A DNA stretch of 60,420 nt from a virus (IMGVR_UViG_3300042549_004702:1-60420); one strand, 5' to 3'. Shown: positions 2,473 to 60,420, counted from the first letter of the stretch. The notes: generated by a model not told the origin, from the sequence alone. Made by a program: numbers and translations.

Positions 2473-2517
2473 TTTTGTCCTTTCGGGGAGGGCGCCCTCC
2501 CCTGATAGCGTGGTTAG

Positions 2518-4763: not shown

Positions 4764-4802
4764 TGTTTCTCCTGTTGTGGGGCCGTGCCCCTGATAGCTG
4801 CG

Positions 4803-6815: not shown

Positions 6816-6866
6816 GTCGTCTCCTGTGGTTGCGCGGCCCGATCACGAGCCGCTGATAGTTGATAG

Positions 6867-7085: not shown

Positions 7086-7139
7086 TGTTTCTCCTGTGGT
7101 TGCGCGGCCCGATCACGAGCCGCTGGTTGTGGTGAATGG

Positions 7140-7337: not shown

Positions 7338-7395
7338 TGTTTCTCCTGTGGTTGTGCGGCTCGTCGCAGGACAAGCCGCTGATTGTGGTGGGTGA

Positions 7396-16218: not shown

Positions 16219-16412
16219 GGAGGTGCAAAGTTGGCCTGTGCCACTTCAGCAGCTCGAACTTGCAATGCTCTGTGACTCGCCCGTGCCACTAGTGGCACAG
16301 CAGGCACAAGATCACCTATTCGTGGAAATCTCCATCGACACACCACAGCTCATATGCCAATTATGGGAGGAACAAGAGAGAGCTCAGGCCGTCATTTGAC
16401 GGCCCGTGCCAC
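15720..16412. repeat. GTGGCACA/TGTGCCAC cluster with 18-bp palindromes
   Basis: 9 forward and 3 reverse exact copies; perfect TGTGCCACTAGTGGCACA at 15952-15969. Confidence 0.85.
16187..16399 (+). CDS. Hypothetical protein
   Basis: ATG in the 16067 frame; fills the gap in the operon. Confidence 0.4.
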   Translation: MENRNHKPSLEEVQSWPVPLQQLELAMLCDSPVPLVAQQAQDHLFVEISIDTPQLICQLWEEQERAQAVI

Positions 16413-25706: not shown

Positions 25707-26797
25707 TAAAGTCAGATATATCAAATTCGTCACGAGTAAAGCAATTAAGCGCAATGTTCGATGTTCCCCCTCAAGAAGTTTCAACTTTACGGTGGCAAGG
25801 CGAATTTAAATACAACGATCAACCGTGGAATGTTGGGTTAATTGTTGGACCATCTGGATGCGGTAAAAGTACCATTGCGCAAAAAGTATTTGGGAAAATG
25901 CCAGATCTGAAATGGCGAGGTAAAAGCGTAATTGATGATTTTGCATCATCTCTTTCGATCTCAGAGATTTCAGAGATGTGTCAAAGCGTAGGGTTTAATA
26001 CAATTCCTGCATGGATGAGACCTTATGCAGTATTGAGCAACGGCGAAAAGTTCAGAGTTGAAATGGCTCGTCGATTGCTTGAGCTGTCTGATCCTGTCTT
26101 TGTCGATGAGTTTACGAGCGTAGTAGATCGACAAGTGGCGCAAATAGGATCGTACGCTATTCAAAAATACGTGAGAAAAAATGGGCGGAAGTTTGTCGCT
26201 GCGAGTTGTCATTATGACATCATTGACTGGTTACAACCCGATTGGATATTCGAGCCAGCCACGATGACATTGACTAGGAGGTTACTTCAACGACGCCCAA
26301 ACTTACAGATTGAAATTTCAAGAGTTCCATATGAAACGTGGAAAATCTTTGCCTCCTATCACTATTTAAGTGCAAATTTGCATAAAGCTGCTCGATGTTT
26401 TGGGTTGTTTGTAAATGGTCAATTAGCTAGCTTTGCTGGGGTATTGCATCGCCCACATCCTAAAGTTCGCGATATAGTAGGCATTTCTCGAAACGTAACT
26501 CTTCCTGATTGGCAAGGTTTAGGATTAGCTATGATTTTAAGCGATAATTTAGGATCGGCTTATAAAGCAATCGGAAAACGACTTCATCATTATCCCGCGC
26601 ATCCTGGATTTATTCGGTCATTCGATAAATCGAAAAACTGGAAAATGGAGAAGCGTCCCGGTATGTTTTCATCGTTAGACGGGAAGACATCAAGTCTAAA
26701 GAATGTTAGTAAATCTCGTCCTTGCGCAGTATTTAGCTATCAAGGACCGTCGATTGATTATTCAATTGCCAATACGTTTATAAATAGCAATGTCTAA
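25685..26797 (+). CDS. ABC-type ATPase fused to a GNAT acetyltransferase
   Basis: GPSGCGKS, LSNGE, VDEFTS; ISRNVTLPDWQGLGL acetyl-CoA motif. Confidence 0.85.
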   Translation: MSSIDIVVKSDISNSSRVKQLSAMFDVPPQEVSTLRWQGEFKYNDQPWNVGLIVGPSGCGKSTIAQKVFGKMPDLKWRGKSVIDDFASSLSISEISEMCQSVGFNTIPAWMRPYAVLSNGEKFRVEMARRLLELSDPVFVDEFTSVVDRQVAQIGSYAIQKYVRKNGRKFVAASCHYDIIDWLQPDWIFEPATMTLTRRLLQRRPNLQIEISRVPYETWKIFASYHYLSANLHKAARCFGLFVNGQLASFAGVLHRPHPKVRDIVGISRNVTLPDWQGLGLAMILSDNLGSAYKAIGKRLHHYPAHPGFIRSFDKSKNWKMEKRPGMFSSLDGKTSSLKNVSKSRPCAVFSYQGPSIDYSIANTFINSNV

Positions 26798-27218
26798 AAA
26801 GAAAGCTACAAAAGCAACGCCTAAAAAAGCAAAAGAAGCTCCGTGGCAAGATAGATTCTTGGAACTATTTGCTATCTCTTTAAACGTGGCTCTTTCTGCT
26901 CAAGGTGCTGGCGTAAATCGAACTACAGTTTATCGTGAAGCTGAACGCAACAACGATTTTGCTGATAAGTGGAACGAAGCTAAACAGTCAGCAATTGAAC
27001 GCCTTGAGGCCTCGGCTTATGATCGAGCGCATAAAACATCAGATACTCTCTTGATTTTTCTTCTCAAGTCTCACAAGCCGGGAATTTATCGAGAGACTCA
27101 TCACATACAGACAACTCAACTAAACATCAACTACGCAGACCTGACACAGCCGCAACTTGAGAGGCTCGCCAATGGTGAAGACCCAGCAACAGTCATATCA
27201 ACAAAACGCGATAGCTGA
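26790..27218 (+). CDS. terS: Terminase small subunit
   Basis: HTH GVNRTTVY, SDTLLIFLLK; directly upstream of terL. Confidence 0.8.
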   Translation: MSKKKATKATPKKAKEAPWQDRFLELFAISLNVALSAQGAGVNRTTVYREAERNNDFADKWNEAKQSAIERLEASAYDRAHKTSDTLLIFLLKSHKPGIYRETHHIQTTQLNINYADLTQPQLERLANGEDPATVISTKRDS

Positions 27219-28599
27219 GTTGGCGCGGCGCGAGTTGCTGAGGCGTGGTCGAGACGAAAGCTTCATCGATTTTGTCAACCGGATCAATCGTCGTTACGTG
27301 TGGTACAAGCACTGTCAGGTAATCGCAAACGTAGTCGAGCGCGTCGAGCGTGGCGATATTAAGCGGCTGATGCTATTCGTTCCGCCACGTCACAGCAAAA
27401 GCGAGACAATCAGCCGACTATTCACGGCATACTACCTGCGCAAACATCCGGATCAGTGGGTTGGCCTGACAAGCTATTCGGCCGATCTGGCATACGTTCT
27501 CAGCAAGGCGTCTCAAGAAAACTTCGTCGAGTCTGGCGGTGTACTCGATAGTCGGGCCGGAGCGGTGAAGCACTGGCAGACAAGCGCAGGCGGCGGACTG
27601 TGGGCGACTGGTATAGGTGGGCCTATCACCGGCAAAGGCGCAAATCTTGCGCTTATCGATGACCCACTCAAGAACGCTGAAGACGCCTCAAGCGAGGTCA
27701 TCCGCGAGAAGCAGAAGGAATGGTACAACTCCACGCTATACTCCCGACTTGAGCCAGGTGGCGCGGTAATCGTCATTCAAACTCGCTGGCATGAGTCGGA
27801 CATCAGCGGCTGGTTGCTCGATCAGGAAAGCGAAAGCCCGGAACACTGGCACGTTGTGAACCTGCCGGCCATCGCTGAGGAGCCGCGCCTATTGCCTGAT
27901 ACGTGCACGTCTGAGCCGGACTGGCGCAACATTGGCGAGGCTCTATGTCCTGAGCGATACCCGCTTCACCGACTCGAGCAGATACGCTCACAGATCGGCG
28001 GATACTTCTTTGATGCGCTATACCAGCAGAGGCCAAGCGCGAAAGAGGGTAGTCATTTCAAGGTAGGTCAGCTGCAGATTGAAGACGCTCATCCGGTGCT
28101 ACTACGCGAATGCCGAGCGTGGGATCTGGCCGCGAGTGCCGGCAAAGGTGACTACACGGCAGGCGTCAGACTTGGTGTTGATGCTGATGGCGTCTGGCAT
28201 ATCGTTGACGTGCGGCGCGGTCAGTGGGCACCTGATGAACGCGACAACGAGATGCGGCAAGCGTCACAGCTCGACGGGCCAAAGGTGCGCATCAGGCTTG
28301 CTCAGGATCCGGGGCAAGCTGGCGTCGATCAGTCACAGCGATTAACACGTATGCTCTCAGGCTTCCCAGTGCGGTCAGAGCGCGTCAGTGGCGACAAGTC
28401 TACACGTGCATCAGGCTTGGCATCTCAGATCAATGCAGGCAACGTAAAGCTCGTAAAGGGTGCGTGGAATGCGGCATTTATCGAAGAGTTCCGCCAGTTC
28501 CCACACGGCAAGAATGATGATCTTGTCGATTCTACTGCAGACGCATTCAACGAACTATCGCTGGCGAATCAGTTCTCACAAGGCAAGCTGCTTCGATAG
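27172..28599 (+). CDS. terL: Terminase large subunit
   Basis: PPRHSKS Walker A, LIDDP, QTRWH, WDLA, NDDLVD nuclease motifs. Confidence 0.95.
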   Translation: MVKTQQQSYQQNAIAELARRELLRRGRDESFIDFVNRINRRYVWYKHCQVIANVVERVERGDIKRLMLFVPPRHSKSETISRLFTAYYLRKHPDQWVGLTSYSADLAYVLSKASQENFVESGGVLDSRAGAVKHWQTSAGGGLWATGIGGPITGKGANLALIDDPLKNAEDASSEVIREKQKEWYNSTLYSRLEPGGAVIVIQTRWHESDISGWLLDQESESPEHWHVVNLPAIAEEPRLLPDTCTSEPDWRNIGEALCPERYPLHRLEQIRSQIGGYFFDALYQQRPSAKEGSHFKVGQLQIEDAHPVLLRECRAWDLAASAGKGDYTAGVRLGVDADGVWHIVDVRRGQWAPDERDNEMRQASQLDGPKVRIRLAQDPGQAGVDQSQRLTRMLSGFPVRSERVSGDKSTRASGLASQINAGNVKLVKGAWNAAFIEEFRQFPHGKNDDLVDSTADAFNELSLANQFSQGKLLR

Positions 28600-28676
28600 T
28601 TAATAGCTGATTGTCGAAAAGTTTCGATGTGCTATGATGCATCATCTGGTCGTGGTTCGTTGTTCCTTTCTGTGCG

Positions 28677-28710
28677 GCGGGGGTCTATGGAGACTCCCGC
28701 TTTTCCTTTT
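28677..28710 (+). terminator. Intrinsic terminator
   Basis: GCGGGGGTCT-ATGG-AGACTCCCGC followed by TTTTCCTTTT. Confidence 0.75.
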
Positions 28711-28806
28711 GGTACTTGCTTATCCGGCAACCTCATACTTATTGTAAATAAATAAACCGTCGAATAACTGATACTTGCCAAGCCCTGTCGGAAAAGAAAG
28801 GAGCTT

Positions 28807-30084
28807 ATGGCGTATCCAAGTTTTTCAGACGAGAAGATTGCGCGAATCATCGAGTGTTACCTGCGCAATAATCGAAACATTCAAAACACCAGCATCCAGC
28901 TTGAGGTGGGCTACAATGCAGTATCAAAGTATGTCCGCAAATGGCAAATGGGCCAGCTGTCCCACATCCAACTCCCACCATATTCAGACGCGCCGGTAGA
29001 AGTACGAGCGCAAATCGAGAACGTCGAGAGCATCAGCACTGGCGATATGCGACGGCAAATTGTATCGCTTCGAAAAGAACGTGATGATCTGATGCGAGAG
29101 CGTGAACAGCTGCAGAAGGTTGCAGCCTTCTTTGAGTTCGTCAAGGAAGCAAGGATGGTTGTGCCTGAGTGGGTGAGCAAGCGACCATCACGAGGCAGCA
29201 AATCGGCAATACCAACGGCTCTATTCTCAGACGTGCATCTTGATGAGGTAGTGAAGCCGGAGCAGGTCAACTTTGTCAACGCATACAATCGAGCCATCGC
29301 CGAAGAGCGCGTGAAGCTGTTCTTCGATAACACGCTTGAACTATCAAAAGACTACTTGCAAGGCTTCAAGTACGAAGGCTTCGTAATGCCACTTGGCGGC
29401 GATCTCTTCAGCGGCATCATTCACGAAGAGCTTGCAGAGACCAATGCAGCCACGATCTTTGAGAGCTTGCTTTACTGGGCGGAACCGATAGCATCAGGCA
29501 TTCGCAAACTTCGCGATACCTTCGGGCGAGTCTTCCTGCCCTGCGTGGTCGGCAATCACGGACGACGCAAGCACAAGCCGCACGCAAAGAATCGCGCGCA
29601 GGACAACTTTGATTACTTCTTTTGCCACCTGCTGAACAAGTTGCTTGCCAACGAAAAGGGCATTACTTTTGCCATATCAGAAGCCAGCGATCAGCCGTAC
29701 AATGTCTTCGATACTCGATACCTTCTCACGCACGGCGACCAGTTCAGAGGCGGCAGTGGCATTGCCGGAATGCTGTCACCGCTGATGATTGGTGACGCGC
29801 GTAAACGAGAGCGTGAAAGCGCAGTCCAGCGGCCTTACGACTACCTGGTGATGGGACACTGGCATCAGCTGGCATTCCTTCGCGGACTCATCGTCAACGG
29901 ATCGGTCAAGGGATATTGCGAGTACGCCTTTCAGTCGAACTTTCGATATGAGCCACCACGTCAGGCATTCTGGATCACTGACGCCCACCACGGTGTAACG
30001 ATTCAGGCACCGATTCACGTTGCCGCCAAGAACGAAAAGTACTCAGCCAGCACCGGCAATCAAGCGATAGTCTCTATGGGGTGA
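28807..30084 (+). CDS. Calcineurin-like metallophosphoesterase with N-terminal HTH and coiled coil
   Basis: SDVH, GGD, GNHG, THGD, GHWH. Confidence 0.85.
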   Translation: MAYPSFSDEKIARIIECYLRNNRNIQNTSIQLEVGYNAVSKYVRKWQMGQLSHIQLPPYSDAPVEVRAQIENVESISTGDMRRQIVSLRKERDDLMREREQLQKVAAFFEFVKEARMVVPEWVSKRPSRGSKSAIPTALFSDVHLDEVVKPEQVNFVNAYNRAIAEERVKLFFDNTLELSKDYLQGFKYEGFVMPLGGDLFSGIIHEELAETNAATIFESLLYWAEPIASGIRKLRDTFGRVFLPCVVGNHGRRKHKPHAKNRAQDNFDYFFCHLLNKLLANEKGITFAISEASDQPYNVFDTRYLLTHGDQFRGGSGIAGMLSPLMIGDARKRERESAVQRPYDYLVMGHWHQLAFLRGLIVNGSVKGYCEYAFQSNFRYEPPRQAFWITDAHHGVTIQAPIHVAAKNEKYSASTGNQAIVSMG

Positions 30085-30527
30085 AAATGACATCGAGGAG
30101 CAAAATTACAACCATCGAATCCGACGATCTCTTGACGTTTCGCGTATATCCAGAAAACAAGCGACTACACTTCGATGTATTTGTGTGGCCAAGTAGACGC
30201 AGGATGCGCGAGTACCTGAGAGAAGCAAGTCCTGGACTAAGCGTCTACCAGATACTGGCTTGTGTGCTATGGCCAACCAACGAAGCAGACCGTGCACGGA
30301 AGACTCAGCTTGGCGAGATCCATTTCAATAGACAGGACCTGGGGTCGGACACGATCTGTCACGAGGCTACCCACGCAGCCTTGAGATGGGCACGATATAT
30401 CGGCATTGATGTTGGCGAAGCAGGGGATGGCTCATCGGCTCCTGACTCCGAAGAGCTTGTCGCATACGCAGTCGGTACGATCGCGCACCAACTCGAGACT
30501 GTACTTGTCGATAAAAAGTACAAGTAA
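30081..30527 (+). CDS. HExxH metalloprotein
   Basis: CHEATH...EELVAY. Confidence 0.65.
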   Translation: MKMTSRSKITTIESDDLLTFRVYPENKRLHFDVFVWPSRRRMREYLREASPGLSVYQILACVLWPTNEADRARKTQLGEIHFNRQDLGSDTICHEATHAALRWARYIGIDVGEAGDGSSAPDSEELVAYAVGTIAHQLETVLVDKKYK

Positions 30528-30605
30528 CTTGTGGATTTTTATCAACGATGTCCTTGTGATGTAGTAATATCACAGAGCCTCATATGTTGAGGCGGAAAGG
30601 ACAAA

Positions 30606-31286
30606 ATGGAACTGACCACGTCACGACTGATATACCCAGACGCGCCTTCGGGATTGCTGTCTGGGTATTGTTCTATTTGCGGCCAGTACGACATCACGCA
30701 CTTCCACCGCAACGACCTACTGACTCCCACCTCGGCCAACCTCACGGCCATCTTCGACTTTCACCACGAGCACGTTTGCCGCTTCTGTTCCGCTATATGG
30801 CGAGAACCGAAGAAGTATCACCGTGCAATTTACGCCGATCACGAATCGGTGCTATTCCCCGTGATATCTGCGGAGACCGCATCATCGGAGCGTCCGTTAT
30901 GGGCCGACGTTATCCGGCAAATGCCGACAGACCGAGAGCGCGTTATCGTGCTCACCACAGATCCTAAGAAGCGAGTGTGGCCATTTGCGCGCATCAGCTC
31001 CGGTAATGTGGCGTGCATATACCTTCACGATCCATCGCGTGGAGTGTCGGGCAATACCTGGGTAGAGATAGCACGGCTGAGAGAATGCCTTGTGATCATC
31101 GAAGAGGCTTACGAGCTTGGATTTTCGAAGCCAGCGATCGAGGAGTCGCTATTCACGTCCTACAATCAACTACAGGCCGTAGGATTGGCCACAACAACAC
31201 GAATGGAGAAAGCCATATCATCGTATAGGGCCACTCCTGAATTCCTGCCTGCGCTCATTGTGGCGCAAAGAAAGGTAACACTATGA
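30606..31286 (+). CDS. csf1: Type IV Cas8-like large subunit
   Basis: Zn finger CSIC...CRFC, KKRVWP motif; first gene of the csf operon. Confidence 0.72.
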   Translation: MELTTSRLIYPDAPSGLLSGYCSICGQYDITHFHRNDLLTPTSANLTAIFDFHHEHVCRFCSAIWREPKKYHRAIYADHESVLFPVISAETASSERPLWADVIRQMPTDRERVIVLTTDPKKRVWPFARISSGNVACIYLHDPSRGVSGNTWVEIARLRECLVIIEEAYELGFSKPAIEESLFTSYNQLQAVGLATTTRMEKAISSYRATPEFLPALIVAQRKVTL

Positions 31287-32719
31287 CCACATCAAACACT
31301 GGGATAATCGCGCCGTACCGATTCACGGCAAAGGCCACATCCACGGTTGCCCACGGAGAAGCCGGAGCCAACTCGACCGGGGCCAATAACACGACACTCT
31401 TTGCCCGGGAGTTGACATTGCTTCAGCGTGACCAGCTCTCGTACAGCAGCGACAAGGCGCAAGCGGCGATTGAATCACTGATGAACGTGATGCCGATCAC
31501 CGAGTCGTCTGTCGAGTTCCTTCGAACGCTATCAGGCGGCGAATTGATCGCGACACTATTTGCTGCTCAATTTCCGATCATTTATCGCGGCGAAGGAGAA
31601 GGACTATTCGCCGGACTCGAGCGTTACCAGTACCTGACAACGCGCCTGACTGACTCAGCCGTAGCTTGCACTACGCTTGCAACTGCGTGGGCGTACGTCT
31701 CGCGAAAGCTGAATCTGACCGCGCCATCAGCCTCGGCGCATATGCCGTTGATGGCACTCTTTGCACTGCCGAAGCCGATACAGGCGGCTGCGCTTGCGTC
31801 AGTCCTGAAAGCTCCTGAGATGGTCGTTATGGGCGCGCGAATGCTAGCCGAAGGACTCAAGGCCACTAACTGGAAATACGCAGAAGCCGCAGATCGAGAG
31901 ACCGAAGAGAAGGCTCAGTACAACGTGACATCTACGCAGCTTCTCGAGTTGTCGGCGAATAGGGGCAGCGTGCTAGCCGTGCGAATCCCTGCGATATCGG
32001 GCAACTCGCTTCGCCACAACATACTACGCGCACCAGGTGCGACGCGCCTTTTGTCGCATCTTGGACTTGGGCCGAATCAAACAATGGTACCGATCGCCGT
32101 TGAGCGGTTCCTGTACTCTGGCGGCAACACCGTCAAGGGCGCGAAGGCTCCGGGGGCGGCGGATCTACTAGAAGCAAAGGTGCGTAGTCACTATCCGATC
32201 GTTGACGCACTTGGCGGATCGTTCGATATGTTCCTGCTCACTCGGTCGCAGGTCAGCGTAAATAGCTGGATAGTATGCCGGGAGAATAACTGGATCACGG
32301 AGCGTAAGACAGAGGGAAGCATCGGATCCGATGTATCGATCTTCGATCTTATCAGCGAGGTGACACGTACTCGGTCAGGCATTGGCGGCAAGGACAAGGA
32401 GTCGGGACAGATGATCTTTGCCTACGAAGCTTTGGCCGCTCAGACAGAGATACTTGTAGAGGTCAGCTTCCAGCCATACACGCAGTTTGTCACGATTGGC
32501 GCGGTGATGCAGGCGTTGACGGACTGGAACACGGAAGGCGCGTTTCTTGGCGCGAAGTCGGCGCAGGGGCACTCGCAGTGGTTGCCAGACTTCCCGGATG
32601 ATGATCGATGGGCACTTGCTGCCGACTACATCGCACACCTCGACAAGAACCGAGAGACGTTGCGCGATGGACTCATCAAGGCCACATTCGGAACGGAGGT
32701 GCAGCTTTGTGGAGCGTAA
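31283..32719 (+). CDS. csf2: Type IV Cas7 backbone with a ~180-aa insertion
   Basis: STVAHG...NTTLFARE, IPAISGNSLRH, LYSGG, TRTR, QMIFAYE, LGAKSAQGH. Confidence 0.88.
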   Translation: MTTSNTGIIAPYRFTAKATSTVAHGEAGANSTGANNTTLFARELTLLQRDQLSYSSDKAQAAIESLMNVMPITESSVEFLRTLSGGELIATLFAAQFPIIYRGEGEGLFAGLERYQYLTTRLTDSAVACTTLATAWAYVSRKLNLTAPSASAHMPLMALFALPKPIQAAALASVLKAPEMVVMGARMLAEGLKATNWKYAEAADRETEEKAQYNVTSTQLLELSANRGSVLAVRIPAISGNSLRHNILRAPGATRLLSHLGLGPNQTMVPIAVERFLYSGGNTVKGAKAPGAADLLEAKVRSHYPIVDALGGSFDMFLLTRSQVSVNSWIVCRENNWITERKTEGSIGSDVSIFDLISEVTRTRSGIGGKDKESGQMIFAYEALAAQTEILVEVSFQPYTQFVTIGAVMQALTDWNTEGAFLGAKSAQGHSQWLPDFPDDDRWALAADYIAHLDKNRETLRDGLIKATFGTEVQLCGA

Positions 32720-33447
32720 TGCACATTCCAGAGCTTGACGAGTATGGCGATCGTATAGCGGCTCTCGAGTATGAGCCGCTCAAGGTCACGGTGACGACGG
32801 ACTCGCCCGTCAGCTGCAATGATCCGATATCGCTTGACGGAGTGTTGGCATACGCAATGGTCACGGATGCACTCAAGGGACGGCCTTTTCCGCAAGGAAA
32901 GGGCCCATACTGGCAGCCGCTTCCGCTCCATTGCGCAAAGCTGATTGAGGGTTTGCCGCTATGGTCAAGTACCGACTTTGTACCGACCAACCTTCACAAG
33001 CGAATGACTCACATCCACAGACGGACGGCGGATAACCCGTACGCAATGATCGGCCTGATGCGATCTGCCTACGACAAGCGACCGCGCCGCTTCCCGTCTT
33101 CGGCCGCGGGGCCGTATATGGACTATCGAGTACCAGAGCGTCGTTACGTCGCGGAGTCGTGGTCGGCATTGTGTCTCGGCAATCTTGAAGAGGTGCGACG
33201 ACTTCTCACGCTTGTTGCGACTTTTGGCAAAGGCGGCAAGCGTGGGTCGGGATACGTTCGGCAATGGACGGTTGAGCCGGTCGCAGACTTTTCATTCTAC
33301 ACGCACGATGGCCGCGCTTTGCGCCCAGTGCCTATTGGTGCCACTGAAACAGCGTGGGCAGGGGTAAGGCAAGGGTGGACTCCTCCCTACTGGCTCAAGG
33401 AAACGTGGCTGCTTTGTCAGCCGTCAGATGTGGCATCGATATTATGA
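32719..33447 (+). CDS. csf3: Type IV Cas5
   Basis: LDGVLAYA, PLPL, Gly-rich FGKGGKRGSGYV, RPVP, PPYW. Confidence 0.85.
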   Translation: MHIPELDEYGDRIAALEYEPLKVTVTTDSPVSCNDPISLDGVLAYAMVTDALKGRPFPQGKGPYWQPLPLHCAKLIEGLPLWSSTDFVPTNLHKRMTHIHRRTADNPYAMIGLMRSAYDKRPRRFPSSAAGPYMDYRVPERRYVAESWSALCLGNLEEVRRLLTLVATFGKGGKRGSGYVRQWTVEPVADFSFYTHDGRALRPVPIGATETAWAGVRQGWTPPYWLKETWLLCQPSDVASIL

Positions 33448-34247
33448 GCATTGTGAGCTGGGCCGATTACGGAATTACGGGTGAGGTCACGGTTGGACGA
33501 CCGGCAGCGGCAGCACCCTACAAGCGTCAGATTCAGCGACGCATCGACAAGGCATTGTCGGACATTGACCGCTTGGCCGTCTCCACAGACGGCCATTTTT
33601 ACTCGGCAATATCATTCGGTGCTGATTCGCTGGTCGCTGATCATCTGATGCGCCGCTACTATCCCGATCATCCGGCAATGTGGGTCAATCAAGGGCCGCT
33701 TGCTGAATGGCCTGACTGCCTGGCACTCAAGGATCAGATGGTAGCCAACGGTCTGCCGCTGGTCGAGTTGACACCGGACGTCACGCTCTACGATTGGTAT
33801 CGATTACACGGCATCCCGACGTCTTCGGCAATGGATAGCAAGGACGACAAGGAGCTGAACGAAGCGTTGATGTACGCGCCTATCCGGCGATACCAGGAGT
33901 CATCGGCGGCGCGTGGCTACTTGTGGGGGCTGAGGTATGATGGCGAAGGCAACCATCGTCGGATACTGATCCAAAGTCGAGGCACGCTATATCATCGAAA
34001 GACCGATGGTCAGTATGTGTGCTCTCCCGTCGGTCACTGGAGCAAGCACGAGATATGGGCATACATCGACCTGTTTGCGCTGCCCTACGCGAAGATGTAC
34101 GACATTGACCGACTCGAGATCCGCAACGGGCCGCCAATCGGCACAAGCGCGTTGAATATGGGGCGAATCGTGAAGCTGAAGCACAACTTCCCGCATATTT
34201 GGCGAGTAGCTGTCAGTGAGTTTCCCGAGTTGCAGAGGTACACGTGA
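33444..34247 (+). CDS. cysH: CysH/PAPS-reductase-like protein (type IV-B signature)
   Basis: SFGADS PP-loop variant, WGLR, SPVGHWSKHEIWAYI, LPYAKMYD. Confidence 0.85.
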   Translation: MSIVSWADYGITGEVTVGRPAAAAPYKRQIQRRIDKALSDIDRLAVSTDGHFYSAISFGADSLVADHLMRRYYPDHPAMWVNQGPLAEWPDCLALKDQMVANGLPLVELTPDVTLYDWYRLHGIPTSSAMDSKDDKELNEALMYAPIRRYQESSAARGYLWGLRYDGEGNHRRILIQSRGTLYHRKTDGQYVCSPVGHWSKHEIWAYIDLFALPYAKMYDIDRLEIRNGPPIGTSALNMGRIVKLKHNFPHIWRVAVSEFPELQRYT

Positions 34248-34813
34248 CGCCACCGTACAAAATCATAATGCGATCGCATCCGGATAGAGATGACCTTGTT
34301 GAGCAGATAAAGCCGCTACTGCCTGAAGATTCGATGTATAGCAGAGATTCCGCTCGTGAAGGTGGACGAGTAAACTTCATCCGCGCTATGACTATGGCTG
34401 AGGGTGACGCTTGCTTGCATCTTGAGGACGATATCATCCTTTGCCATGACTTCATCGACAACGTGAACCGTGTAGTAGAGTATCGCCCAGGTACGGTGAT
34501 TCAGTTCTTTTCGCGAAGATCGGCAGACATTGACATAGGGTCGCGATACGAATCAGGACGCACCTTTTTAGGCGCGCTTTGCTTTTTCTTGCCGTGTGGA
34601 ATGTCACGCGATTTGTTGAACCATTGGCCAGCGTGGAAGGACAAGGACAAACACTTCGACGCGGTCGATTTATTCGTTGCCGACTACCTGAAAAACCAAA
34701 AGCTCAAGTACTGGATCGAGATTCCTTGCTTGGTTCAGCATCGACAGGTCGTGTCAGTCGTCGATAGTCGTCGATCCAAGTACCGCCAGACATCTACCTT
34801 TCTTGGCGAATAG
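34244..34813 (+). CDS. GT-A fold glycosyltransferase-like protein
   Basis: CLHLEDD, PCLVQH; GTGA overlap with the cysH stop. Confidence 0.7.
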   Translation: MTPPYKIIMRSHPDRDDLVEQIKPLLPEDSMYSRDSAREGGRVNFIRAMTMAEGDACLHLEDDIILCHDFIDNVNRVVEYRPGTVIQFFSRRSADIDIGSRYESGRTFLGALCFFLPCGMSRDLLNHWPAWKDKDKHFDAVDLFVADYLKNQKLKYWIEIPCLVQHRQVVSVVDSRRSKYRQTSTFLGE

Positions 34814-34863
34814 CTCACCACTCGCCCGAAAAATTATTCTCGCGACTATCGCAATCTTGCGAT

Positions 34864-36294
34864 ATGAACAGCGAGAGCAACAAAAATTCACCCGCCTATC
34901 ACAACGAAGCTCACGACGAGATGGAGCGTCGGTGGGACATCATCGAAGCCGTATCAGGTGGTACGCTTGAGTTACGCGATGGTGGCGCAAAGTGGCTACC
35001 GCTCGAGCCTGCCGAAGACCAGCGCGATTACGCTATCCGGCTTCGTCGGGCAATATTCTTCAACGCCTTCGAGCGCACGTTGCACGGACTTGTTGGACTC
35101 GTGTTTCGCAAAGATCCCGAGCTTGCCGATGATAATCCCGATCGAATCAAAGAGCTCTGGGAGAACATCGACAATGCCGGAACACACGGCGCAGTCTTTG
35201 CCAAGGAAGCGTTCACGATTGCGTGTAAGTACGGTCATTCGCTGATCTATGTCGATATGCCGCCAGCACTGCCGGAAGGCGCAACGCTTGCCGATGAGCG
35301 CGCCGCCAATCGTCGCCCTTACTGGGTGATGTATGAGCCGGATCAGATCGTCAACTGGCGCGTCGAGTCAGTCAACGGGCAGTCAATGGTGACACTGCTT
35401 GTGCTAGAGGAAGAGACAAACGAGCCTGACGGTCTGTACGGTGAAGAGGAAGTGACGCGGTACCGAGTACTTAGACCGGGATACTGGGAGCTGTTCCGCG
35501 AAGTCAAGAATGATCTGACAGGGGCTACAGAGTACTTGCTCGAGGCTACTGGCGCGTCAAGCCTGCCGTATATCCCCGTCTCAGTGATCTATGCTCGAAA
35601 GACTGGCACACTGACCAGCACCCCGCCATTGCTTGATCTGGCACTGATCAATCTCGCGCATTACCAGAAATACTCAGACTACTCAACGTACCTGCATATC
35701 AGTAGTCGTCCGATCCTATGGTTTCGTGGACGCGATATCAGCAAGGGAGTTGAGGCCATCGGCCCGTACACGTTCTTTGACGTTGACGGCACCAACGGCA
35801 ACGTCGGATTCGCAGAGACCAGCGGCGCGGCACTTGGCGCAGCTAAGGCGGACATTGACCATCTTGAGAAGCAGATGGCAATGCTTGGATTGACGCTACT
35901 TGCCGGCAACAAACCAGTACAGCAAACAGCTACTGAAGCATTGCTCGACTCAGTCAAGGAAGAGTCGGACTTGGCAACCGCTGCCAGATCGCTACAGGAC
36001 GCGCTAGAACTGGCTTTGCATTGCACGGCAGCCTATGAGGGCATCGAGTCCGGCAGCGTGGCTCTTGGCTCAACTATGACCGATTTGACGCTATCGCCTG
36101 AAGAGATGCGAGTGTGGATTGACAGCGCAGACAAGGTGTTCTCGAAGAACACGATCTACGAGGTATTCAAGCAGGCCGGTAAGTTGCCTGATGGCTTCAA
36201 CGCAGATCAGGAACGGATTGCTATTGAAGCGGATGCCTCAACGATGGGCGATCAGCTACTCGCAGCTTTCGACCAAGGTAAACCGATAGCGTAG
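34864..36294 (+). CDS. Portal protein (DUF4055 type)
   Basis: WLPLEPAE...Y-x-x-RL-x-RA, PPLLDLALINLAHYQ; position before the scaffold gene. Confidence 0.9.
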   Translation: MNSESNKNSPAYHNEAHDEMERRWDIIEAVSGGTLELRDGGAKWLPLEPAEDQRDYAIRLRRAIFFNAFERTLHGLVGLVFRKDPELADDNPDRIKELWENIDNAGTHGAVFAKEAFTIACKYGHSLIYVDMPPALPEGATLADERAANRRPYWVMYEPDQIVNWRVESVNGQSMVTLLVLEEETNEPDGLYGEEEVTRYRVLRPGYWELFREVKNDLTGATEYLLEATGASSLPYIPVSVIYARKTGTLTSTPPLLDLALINLAHYQKYSDYSTYLHISSRPILWFRGRDISKGVEAIGPYTFFDVDGTNGNVGFAETSGAALGAAKADIDHLEKQMAMLGLTLLAGNKPVQQTATEALLDSVKEESDLATAARSLQDALELALHCTAAYEGIESGSVALGSTMTDLTLSPEEMRVWIDSADKVFSKNTIYEVFKQAGKLPDGFNADQERIAIEADASTMGDQLLAAFDQGKPIA

Positions 36295-36386
36295 AAAAGT
36301 TATCGACCTGACGTGACGTAACCTTCAACCCATAACCCACGAAGCGGGATGCTTCGTAATCACTCATCCGGGAGGGATGATTCCAA

Positions 36387-37172
36387 ATGCCAATAGAACA
36401 GATATTTGATACTCGCGATGATGCGCCGGAGTTTCTCAGAGGATCTTTGCTCGAGACCGAAGACGGGAAGTTCAAGTTTCAGGCAGAGCTACCACAAGAG
36501 GTCGGCGGACTGAAGAAGGCACTCGACGCAGAGCGCAAAGCACGCGCCGAATTCGAAGGCAAGCTGAAGCAGTATGACGGCGTAGACGTTGAAAAGTACC
36601 AGTCGATACTCAAGCAGCAGGAAGAGGCCAAGGCGCAGCAGGCGCGATCTGCCGGAGACTGGGAGACGCGAGAGACACAGCTAAAAGCGCAGCTCGAAGC
36701 GGATCTACGCAAACGAGAAGCGCACTACACATCAGAGTTAACTGGACGTGACGCGAAGATTACGTTGATGCAGTCAGCCCTTGAGAAGTCGCTGATCGAA
36801 GCGCAGGCAACATCCGCGATCTCGGCGGCCAAGGGAACACCAGAGTTGCTGCTGCCTCACGTAATGCAGCGAGTCAGGATTGTTGAGGAGGACGGCGATT
36901 ATCAGGTGCGAGTGATCGATCAGAACGGTCAGCCGCGCATCGCCGACATAAAAGGCACTCCATTCACGATCAAGCATTTGATCGAAGAGATGAAGGCCGA
37001 TGCGATTTATGGACGGGCTTTTGAGGCGTCCGGAGCGGGAGGCTCTGGTGCGTATAACAGTAACAAAGCGGGCGGCAACGCCAAGACAATGAGCCGTGGA
37101 GCTTTTGACGCACTCTCACCAGAAACTAAAATGGAGTTCATCAAAGCAAAGGGGCAAATTTCAGATCAGTAG
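36387..37172 (+). CDS. Capsid scaffolding protein
   Basis: GLKKALDAER coiled coil, GAGGSG tail; precedes the capsid gene. Confidence 0.8.
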   Translation: MPIEQIFDTRDDAPEFLRGSLLETEDGKFKFQAELPQEVGGLKKALDAERKARAEFEGKLKQYDGVDVEKYQSILKQQEEAKAQQARSAGDWETRETQLKAQLEADLRKREAHYTSELTGRDAKITLMQSALEKSLIEAQATSAISAAKGTPELLLPHVMQRVRIVEEDGDYQVRVIDQNGQPRIADIKGTPFTIKHLIEEMKADAIYGRAFEASGAGGSGAYNSNKAGGNAKTMSRGAFDALSPETKMEFIKAKGQISDQ

Positions 37173-37187
37173 GATCGAAGGAGATCA

Positions 37188-38351
37188 ATGGCTAACACCC
37201 TTTCCTCAGTTCTGCCGGTGATCTACGAGGCGGCGGATGTCGTTTCGCGAGAGTTGACCGGTTTCATTCCAGCATCGTTTCGTAACTCGACCGCAGAGCG
37301 TGCGGCGAAGGATCAGACAGTCACTTACCCGATCGTCCCGACGATGGCTGCGGCGGATATTGCGCCTGGTGCCACGTCTTCGACTGGCACGGATATGACC
37401 GTGGGGTCAGGCTCTATGACCATCTCAAAGAGCCGCAAGGTCAGTTTCAATTGGACTGGTGAGGAGCAGACGGCACTCAGCAATGGCGATCGCCCGCAGC
37501 TTACCAACATTCTTCGTGATCAGTTCGCTCAGGCGATGCGCACGTTGTGCAACGAGATCGAGGCCGATCTGTGGGCGGCTGCTTACAAGGGATCGTCTCG
37601 CGCTTATGGTACGGCTGCTACTGCGCCGTTCGGCACTGCTGGCGACCTCAGCGACTTTGCGGGCGTTCGGCAGATCCTTGACGACAACGGCGCGCCACAG
37701 ACGGATCTTCACCTTGTGCTTGGGTCGGCTGCTATGGCCAACCTTCGCGGCAAGCAGTCGGTGCTCTTCAAGGTCAACGAGGCGGGCACGTCGGACTTCC
37801 TGCGACGTGGTGTTATCGGTGACGTAATGGGGCTGATGCTGCATAACAGCTACCCTGTCACCGTCCACACCAAAGGCGGCGGTTCCGCCTACGCGCTCAA
37901 CCTTGTGGCTGGGTATCCTGTGGGTTCGACAACTTTTGCCGTCGATACTGGATCAGGCACCATCCTTGCGGGCGACATCCTGACCAACTCGCAGAGTGGT
38001 CGCGATGCCAACAAGTATGTCGTCAATACTGCGCTTGCTGGTGGTTCACTGTCGATCGGCGCGCCGGGTAACCGTGTGGCGTGGGTCGATAACGATACGG
38101 TGGCGGTCGGCAACAGCTACACTCCGAACGTCGCGTTCCATCGTAACGCGCTGCACCTGATTACGCGCTCACCTGCTATGCCGGCGGGCGGTGACAGTGC
38201 GGTTGACGTTACTGAGGTCGTCGATCCGACGAGCGGATTGGCCTTCCAGGTTGCGCTCTACCGTCAGTATCGCCAGATCTCTTACGAGGTCGGTATGGCG
38301 TGGGGCGTCAAGGCTGTCAAGCCTGCTCACATAGCTACTCTGATCGGATAG
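37188..38351 (+). CDS. Major capsid protein (P22 coat-like)
   Basis: DVVSRELTGFIP, AFHRNA, YRQYRQ...AWGVKAVKP. Confidence 0.88.
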   Translation: MANTLSSVLPVIYEAADVVSRELTGFIPASFRNSTAERAAKDQTVTYPIVPTMAAADIAPGATSSTGTDMTVGSGSMTISKSRKVSFNWTGEEQTALSNGDRPQLTNILRDQFAQAMRTLCNEIEADLWAAAYKGSSRAYGTAATAPFGTAGDLSDFAGVRQILDDNGAPQTDLHLVLGSAAMANLRGKQSVLFKVNEAGTSDFLRRGVIGDVMGLMLHNSYPVTVHTKGGGSAYALNLVAGYPVGSTTFAVDTGSGTILAGDILTNSQSGRDANKYVVNTALAGGSLSIGAPGNRVAWVDNDTVAVGNSYTPNVAFHRNALHLITRSPAMPAGGDSAVDVTEVVDPTSGLAFQVALYRQYRQISYEVGMAWGVKAVKPAHIATLIG

Positions 38352-56616: not shown

Positions 56617-57291
56617 TTAGACCAGCAGCAGCCCGTAGCCAAACGCTTTGCCCGTGCCTATACCATCGCATAGGGCAAGCCTGAAGTCGTCAGCGTTGGT
56701 GACGCGAAGTGTTCCGGCAAAGTCGATGCTGGTGAAGGTCATTCGACGGTCGCCATATCCGCTGAGGCTCGATGCGGTCACGAGCTGGCGACCGATCTTG
56801 TGTTCAGGCTGTCCGCACTTGCTGAGATGGAGAACCTCAAAGCCTGACTGTTCAGACTTGCGCTTGAGCCAGTCGTGCCAGCCGGACTCGTCTCTGATGG
56901 CGACTCGCTTTCCGTTGATGCCGTTCTTGCTGGATAGTCGCTTGGTGGGATTGCCGCGAAGGAGGAAGGGCATTACCTCGTCAGTGGTGATAGCGTCGTA
57001 CCTGGAAGCGATGCTGGCGCACGACGACTCTTCGATATTGTCGAAGTAGTCGAACGGTATACCATTGGCAGACCAGTCAGGCAGGATGCGTGACTGGACG
57101 ATGATCCGCGGGCGGTGGAGAGTGTCGTCGGTCTCGAGTCGATAGAGGACTCCGAAGTGGCGGCGTGACTCTTCGATGTTCGGCATCTCCGGGAAGGCGC
57201 GCATCAGTCGCCGATGAAGCGCGTGACAGTCTTCAAGCTCCATCTGTACGATGCGCCGTGTGTGGTTTGGGTATAAAACCGAGACGAACAA
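56617..57291 (-). CDS. cas6e: Type I-E-like Cas6 (Cse3/CasE) endoribonuclease
   Basis: HALHRRLMRAFP, VLYRLE, VQS-x-x-x-PDW, LRGNPTKR, WLKRK, G-loop GIGTGKAFGYGLL. Confidence 0.92.
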   Translation of the reverse strand: MFVSVLYPNHTRRIVQMELEDCHALHRRLMRAFPEMPNIEESRRHFGVLYRLETDDTLHRPRIIVQSRILPDWSANGIPFDYFDNIEESSCASIASRYDAITTDEVMPFLLRGNPTKRLSSKNGINGKRVAIRDESGWHDWLKRKSEQSGFEVLHLSKCGQPEHKIGRQLVTASSLSGYGDRRMTFTSIDFAGTLRVTNADDFRLALCDGIGTGKAFGYGLLLV

Positions 57292-60413: not shown

Positions 60414-60420
60414 AGTCCTC
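60283..60420. repeat. Terminal overlap, copy 2
   Basis: Matches 1-138. Confidence 0.95.

What the first reader, a model, noticed from the sequence alone, without database searches (positions are those of the whole stretch)
30606..34813. Array-less type IV-B-like Cas operon with an added glycosyltransferase, inside the phage packaging module
Seen: five ORFs joined by overlapping stop/start codons (ATGA, TAATG, ATGA, GTGA) with Csf1, Csf2, Csf3, CysH-like and GT-A motifs. They lie between terL and portal and are co-oriented with the late genes. I found no cas1/cas2, no DinG, no interference nuclease and no array. Known: type IV-B (csf1, cas11, csf2, csf3, cysH-like) occurs on mobile elements, usually lacks arrays and Cas6, and has no established function. 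Inference: this is a phage-domesticated Cascade-like RNP. It may act as a crRNA sponge, or it may deliver two modifying enzymes (a PP-loop nucleotidyl-transfer fold and a glycosyltransferase) to a nucleic-acid target late in infection or in the virion.
Basis: partly seen in the sequence, partly recalled or inferred. Interest (0 to 1): 0.92.

Follow-up and report, generated by a model that had tools for sequence, protein, structure and literature searches.

The report
Phage type IV-B Cas operon with glycosyltransferase
A freshwater phage carries a guide-less CRISPR-like protein complex whose backbone and small subunits are fused into one protein, together with an ATP-using enzyme and a sugar-transferase, which gives a testable clue to a CRISPR subtype whose job is still unknown.

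Summary
Five overlapping + strand ORFs (30606-34813) encode Csf1, Csf2, Csf3, a CysH-like PP-loop enzyme and a small glycosyltransferase (GT), between terL and portal of a near-complete 60.4-kb phage genome. The genome has no cas1, cas2, DinG-type helicase or array.

Two corrections:
- Cas11 is not missing. It is a ~180-aa insertion inside Csf2 (VIA Z 9.4 to the IV-B Cas11 chain 7jhy_h, next best 4.7).
- The genome does encode a Cas6e, 22 kb away. None was found in 5 related records.

The GT link is real but not universal. Relatives at 67-69% Csf2 identity show no GT homologue. GTs sit beside cysH in five csf lineages. In 72 of 78 other viral loci this GT family lies by a PAPS-reductase-family gene, usually with ParB-like genes near terL.

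Best reading: a IV-B variant acting as the nucleic-acid-binding scaffold of a two-enzyme modification pathway. The chemistry is inferred, not shown.

Phage-borne IV-B is in print. This scan has also noted IV-B with GT or IbrAB genes on other DNA. I class it as a new variant of a known kind.

The parts
30606..31286 (+). csf1 (type IV large subunit, 226 aa); two CxxC pairs seen by eye
   Evidence: PADLOC Csf1_0_IV, E 7.1e-10, over residues 19-220. Homologues lie directly upstream of csf2 in 25 of 48 loci by my HMM survey.
31283..32719 (+). csf2 (Cas7 backbone, 478 aa) carrying an internal Cas11 domain
   Evidence: PADLOC typeIV_Cas7, 2.1e-26, residues 232-464. Family profile against PDB: IV-B Csf2 7jhy_e, 2.3e-9. 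AF2 pLDDT 85.5. Foldseek top hits are type IV-A Cas7 chains, 8.5e-8.
31418..31972 (+). Cas11-like helical insertion inside csf2 (about residues 46-230; structural match covers about residues 61-197)
   Evidence: Insert-only profile: the top PDB hit is the IV-B Cas11 chain 7jhy_h, E 0.0053. Insert-only AF2 model, pLDDT 83.6. VIA-align over 48,161 chains: 7jhy_h Z 9.4, rmsd 3.2, 125 of 143 residues; next best Z 4.7. Foldseek on the same model found nothing at E <= 0.001.
32719..33447 (+). csf3 (Cas5, 242 aa)
   Evidence: PADLOC Csf3_0_IV, 3.6e-28. TIGR03116, 2.6e-12, full length but below the curated cut-off.
33444..34247 (+). cysH-like PP-loop ATP pyrophosphatase (CasCysH, 267 aa)
   Evidence: PF01507, 1.7e-9. 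It is the only PF01507 match in the genome. The PP-loop residues S57, G59, D61, S62 and also G162, R164, E168, R172 are invariant in 27 csf-linked homologues. No conserved C-terminal Cys.
34244..34813 (+). small GT-A-type glycosyltransferase (189 aa, GT25-like)
   Evidence: phrog_854, 5.4e-10. E61, D62, D63 and H166 are invariant in 23 homologues. The L025 homologue scores 3e-4 against PF01755, below its cut-off. dN/dS 0.08-0.12 against L001/L003.
27157..30527 (+). upstream phage backbone: terL, a metallophosphoesterase 'exonuclease' (28807-30084) and a 148-aa protein (30081-30527). This is context, not part of the module.
   Evidence: PF17289/PF03237 and phrog_38; phrog_284, 3.9e-40; phrog_1365. 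These genes keep the backbone orientation in L015, where the module is inverted.
34864..36294 (+). portal protein (context)
   Evidence: PF13264, 1.3e-32; phrog_145, 3.7e-115.
56617..57291 (-). unlinked Cas6e endoribonuclease. A possible RNA-processing partner in this phage only.
   Evidence: PF08798, 1.6e-41. PADLOC Cas6e, 1.8e-40. 0 of 5 related csf-carrying virus records have a PF08798 match.

Best explanation
This is a working, array-less subtype IV-B-type Csf module. It sits as a cassette in the variable slot between the packaging genes (terL, phosphoesterase, p148) and the portal gene of a freshwater tailed phage.

Shown: the proteins are Csf1, a Cas7 (Csf2) that carries the Cas11 small subunit as an internal domain, Csf3 (Cas5), a CysH-like PP-loop ATP pyrophosphatase without the sulfonucleotide-reductase cysteine, and a metal-dependent GT-A-type glycosyltransferase.

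Inferred:
- Csf1, Csf3 and several Csf2 copies assemble on RNA into a Cascade-like filament, as the solved IV-B complex does. The fusion fixes Cas7:Cas11 at 1:1.
- The filament serves as the nucleic-acid-binding scaffold or targeting part for two enzymes.
- CasCysH spends ATP to adenylate (activate) a group on the bound substrate or on a precursor.
- The GT then transfers a sugar from a nucleotide-sugar.

The module would thus be the CRISPR-derived counterpart of the widespread phage cassette 'ParB-like + IbrA-like PAPS reductase + the same GT family' that lies next to terminase genes. In that comparison Csf stands in for the ParB-like DNA binder and CasCysH for IbrA.

The most likely product is a modified nucleic acid, most plausibly phage DNA made late, before packaging. 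The target and the chemistry are not shown.
For: Identity:
- Profile and fold matches for all five proteins.

Functionality:
- dN/dS 0.02-0.16 for all five genes against L001/L003.
- The PP-loop and the DxD-type motif are invariant.
- Contigs 95-99% alike cover the whole operon in 4 runs of 4 studies. One contig spans csf2 through portal, and no joint skips the GT.

Family:
- 59 protein clusters of the long Csf2.
- 41 IMG/VR loci and 6 MAG loci.
- csf3 beside csf2 in 47 of 48 loci, and a cysH-like gene in 42 of 48.

Enzyme coupling:
- A GT directly follows cysH with overlapping codons here and in L025 (BLASTP 2e-15).
- A GT2-family enzyme sits between cysH and csf3 in L029 (PF00535, 2.5e-8).
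- GTs sit in the csf modules of L054 and L066.
- Of 78 other viral loci with this GT family, 72 have a same-strand PAPS-reductase-family ORF, 70 of them within 1.6 kb.
- The typical order is ParB_N, GT, PAPS_reduct+DUF3440, ParB_N, terL (L113).
- In this genome CasCysH is the only PF01507 gene and there is no ParB_N gene.

Same slot, same guild:
- In L002/L015 the genes that overlap the end of cysH are IbrA-like (PF01507+DUF3440) and ParB-like.
- In L007/L017 ParB_N, IbrA-like and GNAT genes lie beside the module.
- Three of the four loci that lack cysH despite room have a related protein instead, which in L024 is a B12-binding radical-SAM enzyme by Pfam.

Precedent:
- ParB-like proteins activate post-replicative phage DNA base modification. 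Such pathways co-occur with GTs (31%), ParBs (27%) and terminases (19%) (PMC13229309, passages).
Against: - No biochemical or expression data. No RNA run holds the locus.
- The GT is missing from the 67-69% relatives L002/L015 and L007/L017, so it is an optional add-on.
- The window's GT reaches no Pfam family. Its only source name is 'GR25 family glycosyltransferase' of LOS biosynthesis. A cell-surface or virion-protein acceptor is therefore possible.
- The solved IV-B complex binds heterogeneous RNA and no target is known (PMC7937560 abstract; PMC8175902 passages).
- Nothing here shows that CasCysH or the GT touch the Csf proteins.
- Subtype placement by Cas7 alone is ambiguous. The best PADLOC profiles and Foldseek hits are labelled IV-A.
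- A Cas6e in this genome and a Cas6 in the L018 operon hint that some members use processed RNAs. This does not fit a purely guide-less scaffold.
- An earlier scan note on a related idea (Csf with DpdA) was later marked down for the guided form.
Confidence: 0.45

Rival explanations
1. Four-gene unit plus an unrelated moron. csf1-csf2-csf3-cysH is the functional module. The GT is an independent cargo gene (for example virion-protein or LPS/LOS glycosylation) that happened to land in the variable terL-portal slot.
For: No GT homologue was found in L002/L015 and L007/L017 (67-69% Csf2 identity). The slot holds different cargo in relatives. The only source name for the GT family is an LOS-biosynthesis GT. 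The Atlas lead is PF01755 in 17% of one cluster.
Against: The GT overlaps cysH (GTGA) with no intergenic space. GTs lie next to cysH inside csf operons in four further lineages, and in L025 and L029 between cysH and csf3. The GT family is paired with PAPS-reductase-family genes in 72 of 78 other loci. CasCysH is the only such gene in this genome.
Confidence: 0.2
2. Anti-CRISPR sponge. The phage Csf proteins, helped here by the phage Cas6e, capture host pre-crRNA or crRNA into inert complexes and so disarm host CRISPR immunity.
For: Array-less and phage-borne. A Cas6e is present in this genome and a Cas6 in the L018 operon. The idea was raised for IV-B in print (PMC7038947, passages).
Against: It does not explain the near-universal CysH-like enzyme with an invariant PP-loop, nor the GT, IbrAB and radical-SAM partners. 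No Cas6e match was found in 5 related records, though only one of them is rated at least 90% complete. The authors who raised the idea judged it unlikely.
Confidence: 0.1
3. Self-regulation by processed phage RNA. Cas6e cuts the hairpin-RBS elements of the leftward early transcripts. The late-made Csf complex loads on the resulting 5' ends and masks their ribosome-binding sites or marks them for modification.
For: GC-rich tetraloop hairpins lie directly before SD and start codons. Their stems differ while pairing is kept. The 13-nt motif after the stem occurs 3 times exactly on the - strand. Cas6e lies on the same strand.
Against: Two of the five hairpins fold no better than shuffles. Four of 100 shuffles give as many motif matches. 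Neither Cas6e nor the motif was found above chance in related csf-carrying records. The hairpins are 250-2000 nt apart, not crRNA-sized. No Rfam CRISPR repeat hit. The resemblance to I-E repeats is recalled, not tested.
Confidence: 0.05

Closest known systems
Subtype IV-B CRISPR-Cas, reference Csf complex of Mycobacterium sp. JS623 (PDB 7JHY; PMC7937560 abstract; PMC8175902 and PMC7038947 passages)
   Same: Csf1, Csf2, Csf3, Cas11 and an adjacent cysH-like gene. No array, adaptation genes, helicase or nuclease. Carried on a mobile element. The Csf2 profile hits 7jhy Csf2 (2.3e-9) and the insert matches 7jhy Cas11 (Z 9.4).
   Different: Cas11 is an internal domain of Csf2, not a separate gene. 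A GT is translationally coupled to cysH. The host element is a tailed phage, with the module in the packaging region. The genome also has an unlinked Cas6e.
Virus-encoded IV-B of the proposed 'Fuxiviridae' (Bathyarchaeia viruses; PMC10848311, passages)
   Same: A virus-borne IV-B with csf1, csf2, csf3 and a CysH-like protein of the Cas-associated branch.
   Different: That one is an archaeal virus with a separate Cas11 in the authors' analysis and a two-repeat mini-array. No GT is linked to the system: the paper's single mention of a glycosyltransferase concerns another virus.
Fused class 1 effectors: type III-E Cas7-11 (gRAMP), III-D fusions and III-I Cas7-11i (PMC12669027 passages; 10.1101/2022.06.13.496011 seen in a search listing only; the rest recalled)
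   Same: Backbone Cas7 and small-subunit Cas11 joined in one polypeptide.
   Different: Those are tandem multi-Cas7 fusions forming a single-protein effector in type III. Here one Cas7 carries one Cas11 inserted between its first strands, presumably still multimerises, and belongs to type IV.
ParB-dependent phage DNA base-modification pathways (5mYOX T-dioxygenases with ParB-like activators and GTs; PMC13229309, passages)
   Same: A nucleic-acid-binding partner plus a modifying enzyme plus a GT, encoded near terminase genes in phages.
   Different: No dioxygenase and no ParB here. The binder would be a Csf RNP and the first enzyme a PP-loop ATPase. The analogy is inferred.
IbrA/IbrB-like pairs (PAPS_reduct+DUF3440 with ParB_N) in phages; DndC of DNA phosphorothioation is the PAPS-reductase-family precedent on DNA (PMC8175902, passages)
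   Same: PP-loop PAPS-reductase-family enzyme. The same GT family as partner. The same genomic neighbourhood.
   Different: The window's enzyme lacks DUF3440 and has no ParB-like neighbour. The function of the IbrAB-GT cassette is itself not established in the papers I could search.

Membership tests
Subtype IV-B CRISPR-Cas | Csf2 (type IV Cas7) | tested here: met
   PADLOC typeIV_Cas7, 2.1e-26. 7jhy_e, 2.3e-9. Foldseek hits to type IV Cas7 chains, 8.5e-8.
Subtype IV-B CRISPR-Cas | Csf3 (Cas5) and Csf1 (large subunit) | tested here: met
   Csf3_0_IV, 3.6e-28; Csf1_0_IV, 7.1e-10. TIGR03116, 2.6e-12, below the curated cut-off.
Subtype IV-B CRISPR-Cas | Cas11 small subunit present | tested here: met
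   Present as a domain inside Csf2. 7jhy_h is the top PDB sequence hit (E 0.0053) and the sole strong fold match (Z 9.4 against 4.7).
Subtype IV-B CRISPR-Cas | cas11 as a separate gene between csf1 and csf2 | tested here: not met
   csf1 overlaps csf2 directly (ATGA). 19 loci with short Csf2 have a separate 143-192-aa ORF there instead.
Subtype IV-B CRISPR-Cas | adjacent cysH-like gene lacking the reductase cysteine | tested here: met
   PF01507, 1.7e-9. No conserved C-terminal Cys among 27 homologues.
Subtype IV-B CRISPR-Cas | no CRISPR array, no cas1/cas2, no DinG helicase | tested here: met
   RecD was not searched for.
Subtype IV-B CRISPR-Cas | no Cas6 | tested here: not met
   Met at the locus, but the genome encodes a Cas6e at 56617-57291 (PF08798, 1.6e-41). 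Print reports 12 rare IV-B loci with Cas6 (PMC7038947, passages).
Subtype IV-B CRISPR-Cas | Csf2 falls in the IV-B clade of a reference Cas7 tree | tested here: inconclusive
   No reference set was at hand. The best PDB sequence hit is IV-B. The best PADLOC profiles and Foldseek hits are labelled IV-A. My tree holds only viral and MAG loci.
Bona fide PAPS/APS reductase (CysH) | PP-loop nucleotide-binding motif | tested here: met
   S57, G59, D61 and S62 are invariant.
Bona fide PAPS/APS reductase (CysH) | C-terminal catalytic cysteine; family-level score | tested here: not met
   No conserved Cys in the C-terminal part. TIGR00434 scores 35.6 bits against a cut-off of 165. It has the fold but is not a sulfonucleotide reductase.
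GT-A glycosyltransferase, GT25-like | DxD-type metal/nucleotide-sugar motif | tested here: met
   E61, D62 and D63 invariant, and H166 invariant, in 23 sequences.
GT-A glycosyltransferase, GT25-like | reaches the Pfam PF01755 threshold; GT-A fold | tested here: inconclusive
   The window protein has no Pfam hit at E <= 0.1. The L025 homologue scores 21.2 bits against a cut-off of 24. phrog_854, 5.4e-10.
IbrA/IbrB-type cassette | PAPS_reduct fused to DUF3440, with a ParB_N partner | tested here: not met
   The window CysH matches only PF01507. The genome has no ParB_N match. The cassette is present in relatives L002/L015 and L007/L017.

The most novel reading that the evidence does not exclude
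The Csf filament, CasCysH and the GT form one CRISPR-derived machine that writes a sugar-bearing modification on DNA or RNA through an adenylated intermediate. In that case type IV-B systems are nucleic-acid 'writers', not interference systems. They would be interchangeable in phages with the ParB-like/IbrA/GT cassette. In this phage the Cas6e-processed hairpin RNAs may even supply defined RNAs to the complex.
Probability: 0.22. Interest if true: 0.85.

Novelty: new variant of a known kind. Interest (0 to 1): 0.6.

Why it matters
As of September 2026 the function of subtype IV-B and the architecture of its complete effector were still described as unclear (PMC13676074, introduction passages).

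This locus offers a compact five-gene operon to work with:
- The Cas7 and Cas11 filaments are tied together in one protein, so there are fewer parts to reconstitute.
- The CysH-like enzyme has a defined downstream partner, the GT.

The comparative pattern narrows the chemistry to an ATP-activated, group-transfer modification. It also suggests that the Csf complex plays the role ParB-like proteins play in other phage modification pathways. The elements of that pattern are:
- GT, IbrA/IbrB, GNAT or radical-SAM genes in the same slot.
- The GT family tied to PP-loop enzymes in 72 of 78 loci.

That turns an open question into direct assays: co-purification, nucleoside mass spectrometry, and ATP-PPase and GT activity.

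The Cas7::Cas11 clade is also a clean case of subunit fusion by insertion in a class 1 effector. In my tree it separates from the other Csf2s by a single branch, which is consistent with one origin.

Tried and rejected
Cultured phages. megablast of 26000-38000 and tblastn of Csf2 against 50,697 phage records found nothing. The GT hit only Microbacterium phage Hendrix (two records, a hypothetical protein). CysH hit only generic PAPS reductases of Bacillus phages.

Arrays. I found no CRISPR-like array in the window or in any of 48 csf loci. Isolated repeat pairs such as L042 3044 were not followed. There was no Rfam CRISPR-DR hit.

Cas11 tests that were weak or blank:
- Foldseek on the Cas11 insert model gave no match at E <= 0.001.
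- hhalign of the insert against the separate small ORFs of short-Csf2 loci was weak (E 0.0083, probability 4.8%).
- Those small ORFs gave no meaningful PDB hit (the best four, E 0.5-0.9, are antibody Fab chains). Their identity as Cas11 rests on size and position only.

Complex prediction. Complex prediction of CasCysH with the GT returned no verdict (score 0.01, mark 0.32). I count it neither for nor against binding.

Expression. No RNA holder was listed for the locus, so nothing can be said on expression.

Transcription signals. The promoter and terminator scan of 26500-36500 was at shuffle level. Co-transcription with the late genes is inferred only from spacing.

Cas6e as a conserved partner: rejected. 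0 of 5 related records have it. However, only one of those records is rated at least 90% complete, and two others have terminal repeats.

Hairpin motif as a conserved partner: rejected. Matches in the relatives are at chance level.

Literature:
- Searches for IV-B with glycosyltransferase, IbrA/IbrB/ParB/PAPS reductase, DUF3440/ParB/phage, PAPS reductase/ParB/JBP/GT and IV-B/Cas7-Cas11/fusion listed no paper describing a IV-B-GT link, the GT-IbrA-ParB-terL cassette, or a IV-B Cas7-Cas11 fusion.
- These searches cover only the held open-access library. Supplements were not seen, and the supplementary tables of PMC7038947 may list IV-B accessory genes.

Unconfirmed reading. The 245-aa ORF of L007 that I read by eye as a methyltransferase (DPPW motif) has no Pfam hit.

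Not tested.

Full report
**What is there**

The window is a whole IMG/VR virus record of 60,420 bases. CheckV rates it 94% complete. Its first 138 bases repeat at the end (family D2).

Five + strand ORFs lie between 30606 and 34813. Each overlaps the next by one to four bases: ATGA, TAATG, ATGA, GTGA.

Profile searches name all five:
- Csf1: PADLOC, 7.1e-10.
- Csf2: PADLOC typeIV_Cas7, 2.1e-26.
- Csf3: PADLOC, 3.6e-28; TIGR03116, 2.6e-12.
- A PAPS-reductase-fold protein: PF01507, 1.7e-9.
- A small glycosyltransferase: phrog_854, 5.4e-10, with no Pfam hit.

Upstream lie terL, a metallophosphoesterase annotated 'exonuclease' in PHROGs, and a 148-aa protein. Downstream lies a DUF4055 portal.

The genome has no Cas1, Cas2 or DinG-type helicase match. 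It has no array and no Rfam CRISPR repeat.

**First correction: Cas11 is inside Csf2**

The Cas7 profile matches only residues 232-464 of the 478-aa Csf2.

Fifty-nine metagenomic protein clusters share this long form. Most are 456-488 aa; three are shorter (372-436 aa). None carries a name other than 'hypothetical protein'.

A profile of 35 of these proteins hits the IV-B Csf2 of PDB 7JHY (2.3e-9). It also hits that entry's Cas11 chain more weakly (0.0083).

I tested the inserted stretch on its own (window 31418-31972 plus 8 homologues):
- Its top PDB sequence hit is again 7jhy_h (E 0.0053).
- Its AlphaFold model has pLDDT 83.6.
- VIA-align against 48,161 chains aligns it to 7jhy_h at Z 9.4, rmsd 3.2 Å, over 125 of 143 residues. 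The next chain scores Z 4.7.
- Foldseek found nothing for the same model.

The whole-protein model (pLDDT 85.5) matches type IV Cas7 chains.

Across 47 Csf2 proteins the segment length falls into two groups:
- 166-182 aa in 26.
- 3 aa in 19.
- About 45 aa in two that are cut off by contig ends.

I built a tree of the Cas7 core with the insertion columns removed. It has 41 rows. I left out L003 and L014 as truncated, and L001, L009, L030 and L031 as near-duplicates. The 22 insertion-bearing rows form one side of a branch with 100/100 support. This is consistent with a single origin.

Loci with the short Csf2 have a separate 143-192-aa ORF and a 233-355-aa ORF upstream. That is the canonical csf1-cas11-csf2 order. 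However, the homology of those small ORFs to the insert is only weakly supported.

**Second correction: a Cas6e elsewhere in the genome**

A note of this scan on the same window led me to 56617-57291 on the - strand. It is a full Cas6e (PF08798, 1.6e-41; PADLOC, 1.8e-40) and lies next to dnaN.

None of five related csf-carrying virus records has a PF08798 match. One of those records is rated 100% complete and two have terminal repeats. Cas6e is therefore not a conserved partner of the module.

In L018, however, a different Cas6 (PF09559, 4.3e-43) sits between csf3 and cysH. Print mentions 12 rare IV-B loci with Cas6 (PMC7038947, passages).

**Distribution and mobility**

- No cultured phage in the INPHARED copy carries a detectable relative of Csf2.
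- IMG/VR holds 41 loci and the species-representative genomes hold 6, all of them MAG contigs.
- In my HMM survey of 48 loci (duplicates of one contig dropped), csf3 accompanies csf2 in 47 and a cysH-like gene in 42.
- In L009 and L007/L017 (69% Csf2 identity) the module lies downstream of the phosphoesterase and p148 genes, in the same orientation as here. In L007/L017 the portal follows, as in the window.
- In L002/L015 (67%) the module is inverted relative to the portal and those flanking genes. It therefore behaves as a cassette in a variable slot.
- Contigs 95-99% alike from four runs of four studies (lake water, freshwater sediment, soil) cover the operon. One contig runs from csf2 into the portal gene, and no joint skips the GT.
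- dN/dS against L001 and L003 is 0.02-0.16 for all five genes.

**Is the glycosyltransferase part of the unit?**

Evidence against a universal link:
- The GT is present in the ~98% relatives L001 and L003.
- No homologue was found in L002/L015 or L007/L017.
- L009 ends about 260 bases after cysH and cannot tell.

Evidence for a functional link:
1. In L025 (29% Csf2 identity) a homologue (BLASTP 2e-15, full length) lies between cysH and csf3, overlapping cysH.
2. In L029 a GT2-family enzyme (PF00535, 2.5e-8) occupies the same place.
3. Scanning IMG/VR with the GT family found 125 relatives, of which 80 were kept. Two of the 78 new loci (L054, L066) have the GT inside a csf2-csf3 module.
4. In 72 of those 78 loci a PAPS-reductase-family ORF lies on the same strand. 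In 70 it is within 1.6 kb, the median gap is 509 bases, and in 63 it is downstream. At least two of the six exceptions (L111, L118) are cut off within about 700 bases after the GT.
5. The typical cassette, read in L113, is ParB_N, GT, a weak methyltransferase-like ORF, PAPS_reduct+DUF3440, ParB_N, an unknown ORF, then terL.
6. In the window's genome the CysH-like gene is the only PF01507 match, and there is no ParB_N match.

The GT family keeps E61, D62, D63 and H166 invariant. This fits an active metal-dependent GT-A enzyme. I did not model its fold.

**What occupies the same slot in relatives**

- In L002/L015 the genes that overlap the end of cysH are an IbrA-like enzyme (PF01507 plus DUF3440, 8.9e-31) and a ParB-like protein (weak, 0.006).
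- In L007/L017 ParB_N (1.1e-6), IbrA-like and GNAT genes lie on the other strand next to cysH.
- IbrA-like and ParB-like pairs are embedded in the modules of L010, L042 and L044.
- Of the six loci without a cysH hit, L016 and L050 end just after csf3. The other four (L024, L038, L045, L047) have room.
  - L024 has a B12-binding radical-SAM enzyme between csf2 and csf3 (PF04055, 7.6e-12).
  - L038 and L045 have BLASTP homologues of it after csf3.
  - The 493-aa ORF after csf3 in L047 did not cluster with these.
- A small winged-helix ORF recurs in four loci.

The Csf core thus travels with a changing set of group-transfer and activating enzymes. The GT belongs to that set.

**How it most likely works**

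Shown: the parts list, their conservation, and the gene linkages.

Known from print:
- The solved IV-B complex is a Cas7 filament intertwined with a Cas11 filament on heterogeneous RNA (PMC7937560, abstract).
- CasCysH lacks the reductase cysteine and is proposed to hydrolyse ATP at the alpha phosphate (PMC8175902, passages).
- ParB-like proteins activate post-replicative DNA base modification in phages, and such pathways cluster with GTs and terminases (PMC13229309, passages).

Inferred:
- The Csf proteins form an RNA-built filament with fixed 1:1 Cas7:Cas11.
- The filament holds nucleic acid.
- CasCysH adenylates a group.
- The GT adds a sugar.
- Csf and CasCysH would be the counterparts of the ParB-like protein and IbrA in the common cassette.

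The 27 csf-linked CysH-like proteins keep the PP-loop and four further residues invariant.

I put 0.45 on this as a whole. On the separate parts I put about 0.9 on the identity of the parts, about 0.65 on a CysH-GT functional link, and about 0.25 on phage DNA as the target.

**Rivals**

- The GT as an unrelated moron: 0.2.
- A crRNA sponge: 0.1.
- Loading of Cas6e-processed phage RNAs: 0.05.

The last rests on hairpin-RBS elements on the - strand. Three of the five fold better than shuffles (z -2.3 to -4.2), and a 13-nt motif follows the stem three times exactly. These elements are not found in relatives.

**Comparison with what is known, and novelty**

Phage- and virus-borne IV-B is in print (PMC10848311; PMC7038947). 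The crRNA-sponge and epigenetic ideas are also in print. As of September 2026 the function was still called unclear (PMC13676074).

My searches of the held library found no description of a IV-B Cas7-Cas11 insertion fusion, of a IV-B-GT link, or of the GT-IbrA-ParB-terL cassette. I could not see supplements.

This scan has already noted related things on other genomes:
- IV-B with GT.
- IV-B with IbrAB cassettes.
- IV-B with Cas6.
- An oversized Cas7.

Those are unchecked AI notes. I reached the GT and IbrAB linkages from my own loci before reading them.

I file the locus as a new variant of a known kind, with interest 0.6.

Noticed in passing
window 56617-57291 (-), beside dnaN 55263-56360 (-) and a tyrosine recombinase-like ORF 57947-58834 (-): A full-length Cas6e (PF08798, 1.6e-41) with no cas neighbours and no array. 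It was not found in 5 related csf-carrying virus records.
   Followed up: partly
window 2478-2508, 4768-4797, 6820-6860, 7090-7130, 7342-7380 (- strand): GC-rich tetraloop hairpins lie directly before Shine-Dalgarno and start codons of leftward genes. The stems differ in sequence but keep pairing. The motif CAACCACAGGAGA follows the stem three times exactly. Three of the five fold better than shuffles (z -2.3 to -4.2).
   Followed up: partly
L113 7136-12807, and 72 of 78 loci L054-L131: A widespread phage cassette lies next to terL: ParB_N, the small GT family, a weak methyltransferase-like ORF, PAPS_reduct+DUF3440 (IbrA-like) and ParB_N. I found no description of it in the papers searched.
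   Followed up: partly
L024 2075-3361; L038 7227-8576; L045 11810-13261: A B12-binding radical-SAM enzyme (checked by Pfam only for L024) lies in csf modules that lack a cysH-like gene, as if it replaced that gene.
   Followed up: partly
L018 5605-6228: A Cas6 (PF09559, 4.3e-43) sits between csf3 and cysH in a module with the Cas11-bearing Csf2. No array was found in the 14.9 kb held.
   Followed up: partly
L002 7313-12871 (= L015 7160-13006): The csf1-csf2-csf3-cysH-ibrA-ibrB block is on the strand opposite to the portal, p148 and phosphoesterase genes that flank it. The cassette is inverted in the same slot.
   Followed up: yes
L024 1848-2078, L025 11388-11663, L028 11235-11692, L036 476-700: Small ORFs (74-91 aa) lie between csf2 and cysH. 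The L025 one matches winged-helix DNA-binding domains (HTH_IclR, 2.3e-6).
   Followed up: no
window 1-138 and 60283-60420: The two ends of the record are 99% identical over 138 bases. This indicates a complete genome, either circularly closed or with a terminal repeat.
   Followed up: no
window 11982-12080 and 12092-12150: 4.3 tandem copies of a 23-base unit, followed by 12/24-base repeats. They lie inside or beside the 291-aa ORF upstream of the DnaB helicase gene and may be replication-origin iterons.
   Followed up: no
window 15720-16304: A cluster of GTGGCACA-containing repeats, some 45 bases apart, plus palindromes, inside coding sequence (families D5 and D6).
   Followed up: no
L096 6943-8546: In one GT locus without a PAPS-reductase gene, a relative of the window's phosphoesterase 'exonuclease' directly precedes the GT.
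   Followed up: no
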